NCBI GenBank assembly: GCA_000165345.1
Contig: CM000432.1
Coordinates: 224,001 to 288,000, forward strand
Direction of reading: 5' to 3'
DNA: 64,000 nt
The notes below the pieces were generated by a model that saw only the letters and a program-made list of their open reading frames with translations, was not told the DNA's origin and did no database searches. This document shows, piece by piece, positions 2,208-36,136 of the stretch (the stretch's first letter is position 1; every line of letters starts with the position of its first letter). The position numbers were made by a program, and so were the translations under genes.

Positions 2208-2763
2208 GCGTGGAAAAAAATCCGGTACCCGTGATTTTCAGTGCATCATTAGGTAAGAAAAGGAAGAGACAACAAAAAGAATTAAAGACAGTATAATGTG
2301 AGAAAAGAAAAGAATTTGTATAAAAACATTAAAATAAACTACAAGAAAAATAATGATACCTATATAGGAAAGTTAATTTATCAGAGAGTTTATTATTAAT
2401 GATTAGTTTTGTTTATTTCAATAGAGTTTTCCTTTCAATCAAGAATATATGATGTTATTCCTTCTAGGGAGCTGAGTTAAATGCACACAGCTTCTAAACT
2501 AGTTGTGACCTCTGCAATTTTCAAAGGATTAATAGAAAAATAATAAAAATAAGAGTATTAGTATTGGAGTAGTAACACAATAATGATGTTAATGAATATT
2601 GCGAATAAATGCATGTTATTATTATTATCATAGTATCAAGATGTTAAGAAAAGTTAGTAATCCCTGAATGATGACATTTATCTTCATTAATATCATTATG
2701 AATTAATAAACAATATTGTATTTCTTTTTGTTTCCGTTTTTCTTTATCTCTCTATTAAATCCT

Positions 2764-3165
2764 TTACTTCCTGTTTGATTGCTTCTTTTTTTGTTGTCTA
2801 GCCTTAGCTTCAGACAAAGCAGCCTTTTGAGCAGCACCAGAATTGCTTTGGTTTTGAGCTCTCTTCTGTTTAATATCATCCAAAGACAATCCTTCAATTG
2901 CTTTGTGAAGTCTAACAGTCTTTTTGTTTCTTCTCTTTGAAGTTGCTCCTTGATTGGTCAACTTCTTGTTCATTCTTCTCCATCCAACTGACCATTTAAG
3001 TTTAACTGGTCTAATTTTTTGGTGGAACAAAGATGCACATTTTTGGTTTAAAAATGTGGAGACTCTTCCATCTCTAGCAACAAACTTTCTTCCTCTTCCT
3101 GGGTATATACGGTATTCACTGTAAGAACAGAGATCCGTCTTGATTGTGGTTTTGACGGTAGACAT
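2764..3165 (-). CDS. RPL24: 60S ribosomal protein L24e (RPL24)
   Basis: 133 aa. DLCSYSEYRIYPGRGRKFVARDGRVSTFLNQKCASLFHQKIRPVKLKWSVGWRRMNKK matches the RPL24 consensus ([58 protein letters not shown]). Confidence 0.85.
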   Translation of the reverse strand: MSTVKTTIKTDLCSYSEYRIYPGRGRKFVARDGRVSTFLNQKCASLFHQKIRPVKLKWSVGWRRMNKKLTNQGATSKRRNKKTVRLHKAIEGLSLDDIKQKRAQNQSNSGAAQKAALSEAKARQQKKKQSNRK

Positions 3166-3558
3166 CCTTCAAATTTTTAATTTACTCCTTTTTTTTTGTT
3201 TTTCTTCTCCCTGAATTTTTTCTTGATTAGGAAAAAATTTTGTAATTTTTCCTGTCTTGGAAATTTATTTTACTTTTTTTTTCCTTCCTTAATTATTTAT
3301 ATTTATATTTTAATAATATTAATAATAATTAATCATTTATATATTTGATTAATACCGCCCCAAAAATTGACAATTAATTACTTTTGAATACTAGACCAAA
3401 TATTATTTTACAATTTGCTATTTTTACTTAGACGCCATTAATTTTAGCTATTAAAATAATTAATTCTTTTTCTCTTATTTATTCCTTTATTAATATTTAA
3501 TAATTTTTTTAATTACTTTTAATTTTCTAATTCGCATGAACCCGCCCAACAATGCCGC

Positions 3559-3570
3559 CGTCTCGAGACG
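3559..3570. promoter_or_regulatory. Perfect 12-bp palindrome CGTCTCGAGACG inside a GC-rich island (3533-3575) in the RPL24 upstream region
   Basis: Seen directly in the sequence. The flanking CCCGCCCAACAATGCCGCCG is also GC-rich. A TGCATGCA box lies at 3653-3660. Confidence 0.3.
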
Positions 3571-3782
3571 AGACATTTGTTGGACTAATATTACGAGAAA
3601 AAAGTGGGAAAAAAAGCGATGAAAAAAAAATGGGAAAAAAGAGAAGAAATATTGCATGCAAAATCTAATATTTATTTATTTTAAAATATAAAATTTAATA
3701 TGAAAATGATTTTACTACTGGAAATATACAATGATGATTATAATAATATTTCATGTTTATTTCTAAATTTTTCTAATTTGGT

Positions 3783-33890: not shown

Positions 33891-34888
33891 TTTTAATCTA
33901 ATAATAATTAATTAATAGAATATTTATTATATATTGATTTCAATAATTTAGTTATTATAGTATTCTTTTAATACTTTGTAATATACTACTTTCTCACTCT
34001 TTTTCTTTCCCCTTTTAAATCGAGAATAATGCCAGAGATGTAACTAAATAATCCAATAATATCTTTCAAGAACAAATTTTCTTAGATTCTTTTTTCTTCT
34101 CTTGTAAAATTCTCTATATATAATAATTATACCAACTTAATTTCCTATTTTTAAAATATGAGCTTTATATTTAAATTTACTCAGTCACAATTTTAGTTTA
34201 TTATAATAATTAAAATGTTAAAATAATAATATATTATTGATATATGTATACACGAATACTATTTAATCAATGTATACTAATTATATAGAAATATTAATAT
34301 AATTAAATATACATATATATATATATATATATGTATATTTACACAAATAAGTATATAAATACAAATATAAATATATATATAAATACATATATGTATTTAT
34401 ATTTATGAATTCATATATATAAACATGTAAGAATCTATTTATTATTAAGCTTATTTTCTACTTGCTCTCAAAAATTCATCAATAGAGCCATCACGTTCTT
34501 TGTTTTGTTTTGATTAGAGTATATTATTATAAGACTATATAATGATTATGCACTTTTTCAAAGGGCCAGGATTAATTATTTATGATAAATTTAAACAAGA
34601 ATTCACTTTTATTTCTACTCTATATTAGGCTTTAAACAGCTCTTGAAAAGAAAAATCACAATTTTGATATGTTTAAACTCTTAATTTCTTTGAATTATAT
34701 CGATCACTCCTTCTTTTAATGTGAATTATCTTAATACTTTAATATTAGTAAGATATTCTTATTTAAATATAAAAAAATAAACTTCTCACAATTTTAAGTA
34801 ATTTATATTTCTTTTCGGTAATTGCATTAATTAATTATTCAACTTGTATATTGAATATATTGAATATGAACATTTTTGTCCAGAGTTA

Positions 34889-34911
34889 CCGCCAAATATT
34901 TGGCGCCAAAG
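34889..34911. promoter_or_regulatory. Tandem/inverted E2F-like boxes CCGCCAAATATTTGGCGCCAAAG about 80 bp upstream of the gene at 34992
   Basis: GCCAAATATTTGGC is an internal palindrome. Two TTTGGCGS half-sites lie in opposite orientation. Confidence 0.45.
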
Positions 34912-34991
34912 TCAATAATTCTGTATTTATTTGACAATAAAAAAACAAATCAGGAAAAAAAAAAAAAAAAAGAAAAGTAAATAAGGGACAA

Positions 34992-35873
34992 ATGAGTAAG
35001 TTAAATGAGTTCTTTGAAAAGAAGAAACAAAAGTCGAAAGGTTTGGGTGACTTGAGTAGTACAAAGAAACCAATAATAGGAGGATTGAAAGGTGCAACAG
35101 GTGATCCAAATATATCATCAGTAATATCAGAAGGCAATATAGACGATTGGTCAATTAATACTGATGTAAAAGATACTTCAGACTTTTTAATTTCTAGTAA
35201 GAATTTATCGGTAGATGGTTTGAGAAAACCATCAAATTCTCATATGGTTGTTGCAGTAAAGACATCAAAACCTGATTTTGATTCTAATATATGGAAATCA
35301 AAGACAGGTGATTCTTCGGGAATGAATGGATTATCTTTATCAAAAAAGAATGCCGGAGAAGATGAGGATGGGAAGAATATGAATGATGAGGAGAAGGAAA
35401 AACCTAAAGAAACTTTAAAGTATAATGTAAGAGCAAGGTTAGCAGCAAGAGGACAAAAAGTTGATTTTTTGAATGCAAAGGATGCAATTAGTTCAATGCC
35501 TACGTTAGCAGCAGCAGTAGCCACTACAAACAAGCCAAGAGGTTCAAATTTGACTCCATTAAATCCTGTTGGTACATCAGGAAATGATTCAGATGCATTA
35601 GGTGTTGCAACTTCTACTAATACATTTACAGAGAAACAAGCTACTAGCACAGCTTCAGCAACAATAGTTGAACAAAAGGATAATTCATGTGAAAGTACTG
35701 ATATGAAAAATGAAGAAAAGCATTCAGAAAATGATGAGAAGAGTGATTTGGAAGTTATTAAGCAGTTGAGAAACTGTAATTTATTATATTTTAATAAGGA
35801 GGTTGTATTTAATTGTATTGTAGATATTGAACAAAGCAAATTAAAGTATTCAAATATTGTTAAAGATTTTTAA
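34992..35873 (+). CDS. Hypothetical 293-aa disordered Ser/Thr/Lys-rich protein
   Basis: The ORF has coding-like codon usage but no recognisable domain. It may have additional exons. Confidence 0.35.
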   Translation: MSKLNEFFEKKKQKSKGLGDLSSTKKPIIGGLKGATGDPNISSVISEGNIDDWSINTDVKDTSDFLISSKNLSVDGLRKPSNSHMVVAVKTSKPDFDSNIWKSKTGDSSGMNGLSLSKKNAGEDEDGKNMNDEEKEKPKETLKYNVRARLAARGQKVDFLNAKDAISSMPTLAAAVATTNKPRGSNLTPLNPVGTSGNDSDALGVATSTNTFTEKQATSTASATIVEQKDNSCESTDMKNEEKHSENDEKSDLEVIKQLRNCNLLYFNKEVVFNCIVDIEQSKLKYSNIVKDF

Positions 35874-36136
35874 ATGAAATTTAAATTAGTTTAGATTATT
35901 TTTAATTTTATTCAAACAATTATTTATCAATTAATATTTTAGTGTATTTATTCGAATTTTTTTTTTAAATTTATTTCAATGATTTATATATCCGGTACCT
36001 TTATTTAGATCTTGTATACCGGCATTTACGTGGTAATAAAAAAAAAAAAAAATATTCTTTTTTTATTATTGGAAAAAAGTAGATTTTAAAAAAAGAGAAT
36101 TAATGCAAAGAATGATATGAGTAGATTATTACAAGA

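What the first reader, a model, noticed from the sequence alone, without database searches (positions are those of the whole stretch)
2221..36000. Shared GC-rich element (A)TCCGGTACC(CGTG) adjacent to E2F-like boxes
GGTACCCGTG occurs at 2224-2233, 28 bp from the E2F-like box of the ESS2-like promoter, and again at 22195-22204, sandwiched between two E2F-like boxes of the SF3b5/UTP13 promoter. ATCCGGTACC occurs at 2226-2235 and 35990-36000, 140 bp upstream of the WD40 gene at 36137. An identical GC-rich 10-mer twice in this AT-rich window, both times in the same promoter context, suggests a second partner site in a composite element.
Basis: seen in the sequence. Interest (0 to 1): 0.55.

Follow-up and report, generated by a model that had tools for sequence, protein, structure and literature searches.

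The report
Conserved TACCGG-type promoter motif beside E2F boxes
In this stretch of Cryptosporidium parvum chromosome 4, the repeated GC-rich words are copies of a short promoter element (core TACC[C/G]G) that is conserved across Cryptosporidium species, often sits right beside E2F boxes, and is absent from the published motif lists I could search.

Summary
GGTACCCGTG lies at 2224-2233 and 22195-22204. ATCCGGTACC lies at 2220-2229 (not 2226-2235) and 35990-35999. Neither 10-mer recurs in shuffled sequence, and they are the only repeated GC-rich intergenic 10-mers here that are not E2F words.

The window is C. parvum chromosome 4. The functional unit is shorter than the 10-mers: a core TACC[C/G]G, seen as GGTACC[C/G]G or ATACCGG[C/T]. 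There are seven intergenic copies against about 1.4 expected, all in promoter-bearing spacers.

Two more lie just left of the window.

In orthologous promoters of up to five other species, the motif sits in the longest invariant non-coding blocks. In C. bovis the only three intergenic copies fall in orthologous promoters.

Five of eight loci abut an E2F box, always with the same end facing it, at gaps of 5-8 or 17 nt. Three loci do not. It is not a dispersed repeat, a hairpin, an E2F site or a catalogued C. parvum motif.

Verdict: a real, probably uncatalogued transcription-factor site that often partners E2F. The binding protein is unknown, and the genome-wide test is still to be done.

The parts
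2220..2233 (.). Site 1: ATCCGGTACCCGTG, two overlapping half-sites (CCGGTA at 2222-2227, which is TACCGG on the minus strand, and TACCCG at 2226-2231). It lies 175 bp upstream of the ESS2-like ATG at 2047 (minus strand).
   Evidence: AAAATCACGGGTACCG (minus strand) is invariant in C. parvum, C. meleagridis and chipmunk genotype I. C. canis has CACGGGTATCG plus a new TACCGG 4 nt from its E2F box.
2196..2207 (.). E2F box TTTCCCGCCAAA. It is faced by the TACCGG half-site of site 1, with a 17-nt gap between the cores.
   Evidence: GGCGGGAAA is invariant in three species.
22191..22204 (+). Site 2: TTTGGGTACCCGTG (TACCCG at 22197-22202), in the divergent SF3b5/UTP13 promoter.
   Evidence: TACCCG is kept in C. 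meleagridis and C. ubiquitum and lost in chipmunk genotype I, C. canis and C. bovis.
22210..22218 (.). E2F box GGCGCCAAA, 7 nt downstream of the TACCCG of site 2. A second box, TTGCGCGCCAAAA, lies at 22148-22160.
   Evidence: GGCGCCA is invariant in four species.
35990..35999 (.). Site 3a: ATCCGGTACC (CCGGTA at 35992-35997), in the promoter of the 551-aa WD40 gene.
   Evidence: CGGTACCTTTATTTAGATC (35993-36011) is the longest invariant non-coding block in the four-species alignment and is also kept in C. canis.
36016..36025 (+). Site 3b: ATACCGGCAT (TACCGG at 36017-36022), 120 bp upstream of the ATG at 36137.
   Evidence: TATACCGGCA is invariant in four species. C. canis keeps TACCGGC, and C. 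bovis has CCGGTA at the same distance from the ATG (105-119 bp in all six species).
38839..38848 (-). Site 4: ATGCCGGTAT, the exact reverse complement of site 3b, in the divergent PMM/MCM7 (cgd4_970) promoter, 8 nt from the E2F core.
   Evidence: TTGGCGCCAAAACATGCCGGTATGTA (38826-38851) is a 26-nt invariant block in four species, the longest in that spacer. It is kept in C. canis. C. bovis keeps TACCGG at the aligned position but flipped.
38826..38837 (.). E2F box TTGGCGCCAAAA, paired with site 4.
59318..59327 (+). Site 5: TATACCGGTG, in the divergent spacer 58743-59698, next to TGCATGCA-type (AP2_1) words. There is no adjacent E2F box.
   Evidence: Conservation was not tested because no orthologous locus was fetched.
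20995..21004 (.). Degenerate copy GTACCGATAC (minus strand GTATCGGTAC) between the two E2F boxes of the ADA2 (cgd4_880) promoter.
   Evidence: The aligned position reads GGTACCGGTAT in C. meleagridis, GGTACCCGT in C. canis and GGTACCGGC in C. bovis.
43373..43378 (-). Possible variant TACCGC (GCGGTA on the plus strand), 7 nt from TTTTGGCGCC. This is the same arrangement as site 4, but the word is also compatible with an E2F-like CCGCC variant.
   Evidence: Weak; not counted in the statistics.

Best explanation
The repeated words are copies of a conserved cis-regulatory DNA element of Cryptosporidium promoters. Its invariant core is TACC[C/G]G, inside a site of about 12 bp. It is seen either as (G)GGTACC[C/G]G or as [A/T]ATACCGG[C/T]; TACCGGTA is the palindromic form.

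Proposed mechanism: a sequence-specific DNA-binding protein, not yet identified, occupies this site in the short nucleosome-free promoters of growth and housekeeping genes. The flanking genes here are an ESS2-like gene, SF3b5/UTP13, a WD40 gene, PMM/MCM7, UDP-glucose pyrophosphorylase (UDPGP) and ADA2. In most of these promoters the protein would bind side by side with E2F/DP, because the core's 3' end faces the E2F box at 5-8 nt (17 nt in one case) from the CG core, so the two would act together.

Shown: the sequence recurrence, the restriction to promoter-bearing spacers, the cross-species conservation, and the orientation and spacing relative to E2F boxes.

Inferred: protein binding, cooperation with E2F/DP, and the identity of the factor. 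My best guess is a Myb-type helix-turn-helix protein. TACCCGT is the core of the yeast Reb1 site TTACCCG, and TACCSG differs from the Myb element YAACNG at one position (both from my own knowledge).
For: 1. Recurrence beyond chance. Both 10-mers gave 0 of 100 shuffles. The core TACCSG occurs 7 times in 14.6 kb of intergenic sequence, against a mean of 1.39 and a maximum of 5 in 300 local shuffles.
2. Replication in new C. parvum sequence flanking the window. There are 3 half-sites at 2 loci in 4.7 kb of intergenic sequence against 0.46 expected (16 of 1000 shuffles reached 3). Both loci are next to E2F boxes.
3. Location. 5 of 17 promoter-bearing spacers carry the motif and 0 of 7 convergent spacers do.
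4. Conservation. The longest invariant non-coding blocks of the WD40 and PMM/MCM7 spacers contain the motif. GTACC in the WD40-737/UDPGP promoter is invariant across C. meleagridis, chipmunk genotype I, C. canis and C. felis.
5. Distant species. In C. bovis the only 3 intergenic TACCSG (0.51 expected) lie in promoters orthologous to motif-bearing ones. C. ubiquitum has 6 against 0.71 expected.
6. Relation to E2F. All five E2F-adjacent loci have the same end facing the box, at gaps of 5, 6, 7, 8 and 17 nt. The gap at site 4 is 8 nt in five species.
7. The flanks are unrelated, so the copies are not a repeat family.
Against: - Only about 82 kb of C. parvum sequence was available, and the core was defined after looking at the data.
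- Strict invariance of the hexamers (3 of 6) is far above all hexamers (10%) but not clearly above GC-rich intergenic hexamers in general (35%).
- Site 2 is lost in chipmunk genotype I, C. canis and C. bovis.
- Sites 3 and 5 have no adjacent E2F box. C. bovis keeps the motif with no nearby E2F box at two promoters and 26 nt from one at the ADA2 promoter.
- E2F boxes are so common in C. parvum promoters (upstream of 2,379 genes; PMC3734150) that some adjacency is expected in compact promoters.
- Genome-wide motif searches did not report this motif, so it may be rarer than this window suggests.
- There is no binding or expression evidence.
Confidence: 0.5

Rival explanations
1. The element is a functional protein-binding site that acts independently of E2F. 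It could be a general regulatory or nucleosome-excluding factor site (Reb1-like) or a core-promoter element at a fixed distance from the start site. Its closeness to E2F boxes would then be a by-product of very short promoters in which most GC-rich sites cluster.
For: Sites 3a/3b and 5 have no adjacent E2F box. In the WD40 promoter the element sits 105-119 bp from the ATG in all six species, including C. bovis where its orientation is flipped. C. bovis keeps the motif in the PMM/MCM7 spacer although the E2F box is gone. E2F cores occur in 11 of 24 spacers anyway.
Against: In five of five E2F-adjacent loci the same end faces the box at a narrow range of gaps. The 26-nt block joining the E2F box and the motif is invariant as a unit in four species. 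Both new copies found outside the window are again 5-6 nt from an E2F core.
Confidence: 0.27
2. The sites are binding sites for an ApiAP2 protein with a GTAC-type specificity, like the (Gx)GTACNC motif of Plasmodium AP2-G.
For: Sites 1, 2, 3a and the site upstream of UDPGP contain GGTAC/GTACC. GGGTACCC at site 2 fits GxGTACxC. The AP2-G motif is as given in PMC6631176.
Against: Half of the C. parvum sites (3b, 4, 5 and the TACCGGTA site) read ATACCGG and have no GTAC. None of the primary motifs listed for the 18 C. parvum ApiAP2 proteins resembles it; they are TGCAT-type, GCACAC, GTGTGT, GCGTGCA, AAAA and G-box (PMC12246861 Table 4). The flanking genes are housekeeping genes, not a stage-specific set.
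Confidence: 0.1
3. Coincidence: a few GC-rich words recur by chance in AT-rich spacer and have no function.
For: The sample is small and the core motif was chosen post hoc. GC-rich hexamers in these spacers are often conserved anyway (35%). Site 2 is not conserved in three species.
Against: 0 of 100 shuffles for each 10-mer and 0 of 300 for the core count. The excess is replicated in new flanking sequence and in C. ubiquitum and C. bovis. The motif sits in the longest invariant blocks. ATGCCGGTAT and GGGTACCGGATTTT recur exactly at further promoters.
Confidence: 0.08
4. The element acts at the nucleic-acid-structure level (a hairpin or cruciform such as CCGGTA...TACCGG at site 3), or it is an upstream element of small non-coding RNA genes (like the proximal sequence element, PSE, of snRNA genes).
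For: Site 3 holds an inverted pair, CCGGTA-N19-TACCGG. A 300-nt block that is unusually well conserved lies about 70 nt from site 1.
Against: Predicted folds of all four sites are no better than shuffles (z from -1.1 to +0.8). There are no Rfam family or tRNA hits anywhere in the window. No conserved block follows sites 2, 3 or 4. The conserved block near site 1 contains an AATAAA and folds better on the RPL24-sense strand, which fits a 3' UTR.
Confidence: 0.03

Closest known systems
E2F/DP box of Cryptosporidium promoters ([A/T][C/G]GCGC[G/C][A/T], TTTGGCGGGAA)
   Same: It is a GC-rich word in AT-rich spacer, located in promoter-bearing intergenic regions and conserved between species. It lies physically next to the motif in five loci.
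   Different: The motif has no GCGC/GGCGG core. It is a separate word 5-17 nt away, and it occurs without an E2F box at sites 3 and 5.
CDE/CHR composite elements of animal cell-cycle genes (E2F-type site plus TTYGAA, bound by the DREAM complex); from my own knowledge
   Same: The idea is the same: a second short site at a fixed, close distance and orientation from an E2F-type site, in promoters of proliferation genes.
   Different: The sequence is different (TACCSG, not TTYGAA) and the spacing is looser. C. parvum is reported to lack pRb and most other components of that E2F complex, keeping only orthologues of RPD3 and LIN-53 (PMC3734150). Binding was not tested.
Drosophila DRE (TATCGATA)/DREF sites that accompany E2F sites in replication-gene promoters; from my own knowledge
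   Same: It is an 8-bp palindrome of the form TA..CG..TA (TACCGGTA against TATCGATA), found with E2F boxes upstream of replication and growth genes such as MCM7.
   Different: Two of the eight positions differ. DREF is a BED-finger protein of animals, and I know of no such factor in Cryptosporidium. This is an analogy only.
Yeast Reb1 site TTACCCG(G/T) and the Myb recognition element YAACNG; from my own knowledge
   Same: TACCCGT (sites 1 and 2) is the core of the Reb1 site. TACCSG differs from YAACNG at one position, and its variable base coincides with the N. Reb1 sites also sit in nucleosome-free, often bidirectional, promoters.
   Different: Most copies are TACCGG, not TACCCG. No Reb1 homologue has been shown in C. 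parvum. The 16 annotated Myb-domain proteins have no known DNA targets apart from the functional role shown for Myb-M (PMC12246861).
Plasmodium AP2-G motif (Gx)GTACNC
   Same: The GGTACC-type copies share the GTAC core.
   Different: Half the copies lack GTAC. No C. parvum AP2 domain is reported with such a motif.
Oberstaller et al. 2013 catalogue of 25 over-represented C. parvum upstream motifs
   Same: It is the same kind of object: a short upstream word. A neighbouring conserved word, TTAGATC, matches their 'Unknown set 1' (GAYCTMD, HTAGVTCW).
   Different: None of the 25 consensus patterns contains GTACC, TACCGG or TACCCG. The cluster-level motif table in the supplement, as far as it is held, has only TACCGCC-type E2F variants.

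Membership tests
E2F/DP binding site | Symmetric CG core [C/G]GCGC[G/C] (or GGCGGG) flanked by T and A runs | tested here: not met
   All copies read TACC[C/G]G with no GCGC or GGCGG. The E2F boxes are separate words 5-17 nt away.
Composite E2F-partner element (CDE/CHR-like module) | Fixed orientation and close spacing relative to an E2F-type site, kept in evolution | tested here: inconclusive
   Five of eight loci have the core's 3' end facing an E2F core at 5, 6, 7, 8 or 17 nt. The gap at site 4 is 8 nt in five species. Sites 3 and 5 have no adjacent box, the ADA2 site is 24-35 nt away, and C. bovis has no E2F box near the motif at two promoters. The sample is too small for a spacing histogram.
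Composite E2F-partner element (CDE/CHR-like module) | Joint occupancy or cooperative binding of the two proteins | not testable with these tools
   This needs ChIP/CUT&RUN, footprinting or gel-shift experiments.
ApiAP2 GTAC-type site (AP2-G-like) | GTAC core in every site, (Gx)GTACNC | tested here: not met
   Four of eight C. parvum sites have ATACCGG without GTAC.
ApiAP2 GTAC-type site (AP2-G-like) | A C. parvum AP2 domain with that specificity | tested here: not met
   The primary motifs listed for the 18 C. parvum ApiAP2 proteins do not include it (PMC12246861 Table 4; PMC4117751 text). Secondary motifs could not be checked because the figures and supplements are not held.
Catalogued C. parvum upstream motifs (Oberstaller 2013; Mullapudi 2007; Cohn 2010; Li 2021; Xiao 2025 preprint; 2025 review) | Match to a published consensus | tested here: not met
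   There is no GTAC, TACC or CCGG string in the main texts and no matching consensus in the tables. Bankier et al. 2003 could not be read.
Dispersed repeat family | Similarity extending into the flanks of the copies | tested here: not met
   Oriented flanks of the ten copies share nothing beyond the site, apart from GGGTACCGGATTTT shared by two of them.
Reb1/Myb-type general regulatory factor site | Core TTACCCG (Reb1) or YAACNG (Myb) | tested here: inconclusive
   TACCCGT is present at sites 1 and 2 only; the other sites have TACCGG. The comparison with the yeast and Myb consensus sequences rests on my own knowledge.
Reb1/Myb-type general regulatory factor site | Presence and binding of such a factor | not testable with these tools
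   C. parvum has 16 Myb-domain proteins, several labelled 'DNA binding', and none has a known target sequence (PMC12246861 Table 6).
snRNA-type proximal sequence element / non-coding RNA promoter | A conserved small RNA gene about 50-70 nt downstream of each copy | tested here: not met
   There are no Rfam or tRNA hits and no conserved block downstream of sites 2, 3 or 4.

The most novel reading that the evidence does not exclude
TACC[C/G]G is the site of an unrecognised Cryptosporidium transcription factor that docks next to E2F/DP in a fixed orientation. This would define a two-part promoter module for a subset of growth genes, and so help explain how the near-ubiquitous E2F boxes of this parasite give gene-specific output.
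Probability: 0.3. Interest if true: 0.55.

Novelty: new member of a known kind. Interest (0 to 1): 0.4.

Why it matters
Cryptosporidium has very few recognised transcription factors, and E2F boxes lie upstream of most of its genes. What gives promoters their individuality is therefore an open question (reviewed in PMC12246861). A conserved second site that repeatedly abuts E2F boxes would be a concrete, testable handle on that question. It can be scanned genome-wide, footprinted in existing ATAC-seq data, used as bait to find its binding protein, and mutated in reporter constructs. The element itself is an ordinary kind of thing, a short promoter motif. Its value is as a lead for Cryptosporidium gene-regulation work rather than as a new principle.

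Tried and rejected
- Rfam search of the whole window at gathering thresholds, and of the two largest spacers at E<=10, plus a tRNA scan. There were no real hits, only AT-repeat pseudo-miRNA matches and a 13-bit RUF1 match.
- Hairpin or cruciform reading of the sites: the folds are no better than shuffles.
- Dispersed-repeat reading: the flanks are unrelated.
- TACCGC words: mostly E2F-type CCGCCAAA variants, so they were left out of the counts.
- Strict-invariance test against GC-rich hexamers: not discriminating, 3 of 6 against 35%.
- Literature searches for GGTACC or TACCGG with Cryptosporidium returned only primer sequences.
- Supplements of the ApiAP2 microarray paper are not held, and Bankier et al. 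2003 is not held.
- I considered using the third large protein search to reach C. parvum paralogues on other chromosomes. I judged it unlikely to rank them above orthologues from other organisms, and the contig look-ups were exhausted anyway (12 of 12).
- The right-hand flank of the window (2.7 kb of new intergenic sequence) held no further copy.
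Full report
**What the window is.** The 551-aa WD40 protein encoded at 36137-37792 is found identically on CP029783.1 of assembly GCA_031892065.1, a 1.1-Mb chromosome. The ESS2-like protein is 100% identical to a C. parvum Iowa II protein. The histidine phosphatase is named CPHLJ_4g920, ADA2 is cgd4_880 and MCM7 is cgd4_970. The window is therefore Cryptosporidium parvum chromosome 4. Its GC content is 26.7% overall and 21% in intergenic sequence.

**Genes next to the sites.**
- Site 1: ESS2-like (1070-2047, minus) and RPL24e (2764-3165, minus).
- Site 2: SF3b5 (exons about 21557-21894, minus) and UTP13 (22698-25826, plus).
- Site 3: an unknown 293-aa protein (34992-35873, plus) and a WD40 protein (36137-37792, plus).
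- Site 4: phosphomannomutase (PMM, minus) and MCM7 (39050-41638, plus).

**Checking the observation.** Both 10-mers are present twice, as stated. One coordinate is wrong: ATCCGGTACC is at 2220-2229, not 2226-2235. Neither 10-mer recurred in 100 dinucleotide-preserving shuffles. Among intergenic 10-mers with at least six G or C, twelve are repeated. The E2F-like boxes near sites 1 and 2 are real.

**The real unit is shorter.** Listing the GC-rich hexamers of the intergenic sequence puts GTACCC (6 copies), TACCGG (5) and GTACCG (4) just behind the E2F and TGCATGCA words. Searching for the shared core TACC[C/G]G on both strands gives 15 hits, 7 of them intergenic:
- 2222(-) and 2226(+), site 1
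- 22197(+), site 2
- 35992(-) and 36017(+), sites 3a and 3b
- 38842(-), site 4
- 59320(+), site 5

Site 4 reads ATGCCGGTAT, the exact reverse complement of site 3b (ATACCGGCAT), and lies 8 nt from the E2F core in the PMM/MCM7 promoter.

With shuffling inside 50-bp windows, which keeps local composition, the intergenic count of 7 compares with a mean of 1.39 and a maximum of 5 in 300 trials. All five motif-bearing spacers contain a promoter (5 of 17 such spacers), and none of the seven convergent 3'-3' spacers has a copy. The flanks of the copies are unrelated, so this is not a repeat family. Aligned on the core, the eight C. parvum sites give [G/T][G/A]TACC[G/c]G[A/T/C][A/T/G]T, with TACC and the final G invariant. 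There are two flavours, GGTACC[C/G]G and ATACCGG[C/T], and TACCGGTA is the palindromic form.

**Replication outside the window.** Two look-ups extended the C. parvum sequence by about 9 kb on each side. The 4.7 kb of new intergenic sequence holds three half-sites at two loci, against 0.46 expected; 16 of 1000 shuffles reached three. Both loci lie to the left of the window.
- The first is GGGTACCGGATTTTCCCGCCGGCGCC, in the divergent promoter of a 737-aa WD40 gene and the UDP-glucose pyrophosphorylase (UDPGP) gene.
- The second is GCGCCTATTTACCGGTATAA, downstream of the UDPGP gene. It has the full palindrome 4-6 nt from an E2F-like core.

**Conservation.** I fetched the orthologous loci from C. 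meleagridis, chipmunk genotype I, C. ubiquitum, C. canis, C. felis and C. bovis.
- WD40 promoter: the two longest invariant non-coding blocks are CGGTACCTTTATTTAGATC (19 nt) and TATACCGGCA. C. canis keeps both. C. bovis has CCGGTA at the same distance from the ATG, 105-119 bp in all six species.
- PMM/MCM7 promoter: the longest invariant block is the 26-mer TTGGCGCCAAAACATGCCGGTATGTA, which joins the E2F box and the motif. C. canis keeps it. C. bovis has lost the E2F box but has TACCGG, flipped, at the aligned position.
- Site 1: AAAATCACGGGTACCG is invariant in three species. C. canis has a one-base variant plus a new TACCGG 4 nt from its E2F box.
- Site 2 is the weakest. TACCCG is kept in C. 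meleagridis and C. ubiquitum but lost in chipmunk genotype I, C. canis and C. bovis.
- WD40-737/UDPGP promoter: GTACC followed by the double E2F box is invariant out to C. felis.
- ADA2 promoter: between two E2F boxes, C. meleagridis has GGTACCGGTAT, C. canis GGTACCCGT and C. bovis GGTACCGGC. C. parvum has the degenerate GTATCGGTAC.
- C. bovis: the only three intergenic TACCSG in 4 kb of spacer (0.51 expected; 4 of 300 shuffles reached three) all fall in promoters orthologous to motif-bearing ones. C. ubiquitum has six against 0.71 expected.

One caution applies. Measured as strict invariance of the hexamer across all aligned species, the motif scores 3 of 6. That compares with 10% for all hexamers but 35% for GC-rich hexamers and 3 of 5 for E2F cores. 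The motif is about as conserved as the accepted promoter words, not more so.

**Relation to E2F boxes.** Five loci have an E2F-type core within 17 nt: sites 1, 2 and 4 and the two new sites. In every one, the 3' end of TACCSG faces the box. The gaps are 17, 7, 8, 5 and 6 nt. The only half-sites facing away are the second halves of the two double sites. At site 4 the gap is 8 nt in five species, and at site 2 it is 7, 6 and 7 nt in the three species that keep it. Because the E2F site includes a T-run, the two sites are effectively 1-4 bp apart. A TACCGC at 43373 shows the same layout, 7 nt from TTTTGGCGCC, but could be an E2F variant.

Against an obligatory pairing:
- Sites 3a/3b and 5 have no adjacent box.
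- The ADA2 copy is 24-35 nt from its boxes.
- C. bovis keeps the motif with no nearby E2F box at the PMM/MCM7 and WD40 promoters, and 26 nt from one at the ADA2 promoter.
- E2F cores occur in 11 of 24 spacers anyway, and upstream of 2,379 genes genome-wide (PMC3734150).

**What it is not.**
- It is not an E2F site, because it has no GCGC core.
- It matches none of the 25 over-represented upstream motifs of Oberstaller et al. 2013. The cluster-level table in that paper's supplement, as far as it is held, contains only TACCGCC-type E2F variants.
- It is absent from the main texts of Mullapudi 2007, Cohn 2010, Li 2021 and Hasan 2024.
- It is absent from the ATAC-seq motif analysis of Xiao et al., which reports E2F and poly-T motifs only, and from the 2025 review tables.
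- The primary motifs listed for the 18 C. parvum ApiAP2 proteins are TGCAT-type, GCACAC, GTGTGT, GCGTGCA, AAAA and G-box. None is GTAC- or TACCGG-like.
- The Plasmodium AP2-G motif (Gx)GTACNC fits the GGTACC flavour only, and half the sites lack GTAC.
- Predicted single-strand folds of the sites are no better than shuffles.
- No Rfam family or tRNA is present, so a structural role or a role as a small-RNA promoter is unlikely.

**Most likely mechanism.** The element is a binding site for a sequence-specific protein in the compact promoters of growth and housekeeping genes. It is usually placed directly beside an E2F/DP site in one orientation, which suggests the two proteins bind side by side and act together. 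The motif also occurs alone and outlasts the E2F box in C. bovis, so an independent role (for example as a general promoter-opening factor) is the main rival. The binding protein is unknown.

From my own knowledge, TACCCGT is the core of the yeast Reb1 site, and TACCSG differs from the Myb element YAACNG at one position. This makes one of the uncharacterised 'DNA-binding' Myb proteins listed in the 2025 review (cgd6_4510, cgd3_2510 or the 4R-Myb cgd3_1120) a reasonable first guess. That is inference only. The analogies to CDE/CHR modules and to Drosophila DRE/DREF sites concern how the element may work, not what family it belongs to.

**Verdict.** The finding is a real, conserved promoter motif that appears to be uncatalogued, a new member of a familiar class. 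The evidence comes from about 82 kb of C. parvum sequence plus orthologous loci. The genome-wide scan, footprinting and binding experiments listed under next steps would settle both the motif's reality and its link to E2F.

Noticed in passing
window 2290-2620 (between the RPL24e stop at 2764 and site 1): A non-coding block of about 300 nt is 93% identical to C. meleagridis and 84% to chipmunk genotype I. Its core of about 300 columns is nearly invariant among the three species, whereas the adjacent ESS2-like protein is only 74% identical in amino acids to chipmunk genotype I. It contains an AATAAA on the RPL24-sense strand. The alignment folds better than column shuffles on that strand (z = -8.8, against -4.0 on the other strand). 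There is no Rfam hit. It could be a structured RPL24 3' UTR or an embedded small RNA.
   Followed up: partly
window 2159-2165 (GATCTAA, i.e. TTAGATC on the minus strand), 36005-36011 (TTAGATC); L015 about 13600 (GTGATCTT): A TTAGATC/GATCT word is conserved across species a few to about 50 nt gene-ward of the motif in the ESS2, WD40 and UDPGP promoters. It matches the 'Unknown set 1' motifs (GAYCTMD, HTAGVTCW) of Oberstaller et al. 2013, so the promoters may share a motif, E2F box, TAGATC layout.
   Followed up: partly
window 22225-22232 (ATTTGAAA) and 38909-38916 (GGATTTGA): TTTGAA words, which resemble the animal CHR element, are conserved in four or five species downstream of the E2F boxes of the SF3b5/UTP13 and PMM/MCM7 promoters. 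C. parvum is reported to lack pRb and most other components of that E2F complex.
   Followed up: no
window 38875-38884: ACCCCACACT (reverse G-box, matching motif 2, DTGTGGGG) is invariant in all six species including C. bovis. It is the most deeply conserved word of the PMM/MCM7 promoter.
   Followed up: no
window 15402, 20850, 22194 (minus strand), 44967 (plus strand): GTACCCAA(A/T) occurs four times in intergenic sequence. One copy overlaps site 2 as TTTGGGTAC. It may be a related or separate word.
   Followed up: no
window 28575-28587, 59231-59241, 63567-63576: ATGTGGACGAA and GTCCACATGA recur in three spacers. In C. ubiquitum the orthologue of the 28577 copy is followed by TACCGGTA, where C. 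parvum has TATTAATA. This looks like lineage-specific gain or loss of the motif.
   Followed up: partly
window 22353-22414 and about 22560-22610: (TA)n and (TATG)n microsatellites in the SF3b5/UTP13 spacer are expanded in C. parvum and C. meleagridis and absent in chipmunk genotype I and C. ubiquitum. They produced spurious microRNA-family matches.
   Followed up: no
window 46169-51757 and 51729-54476: Two long overlapping ORFs (1862 and 915 aa) correspond to a single called gene of 2764 aa in another C. parvum assembly (L016). This implies a short intron or a frame change near 51740.
   Followed up: no
window 44870 and 45657: TTAGGGTCAG is repeated on either side of the small ORFs at 45013-45553. 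It is the only other repeated GC-rich 10-mer found that is not related to E2F, AP2_1 or the motif.
   Followed up: no
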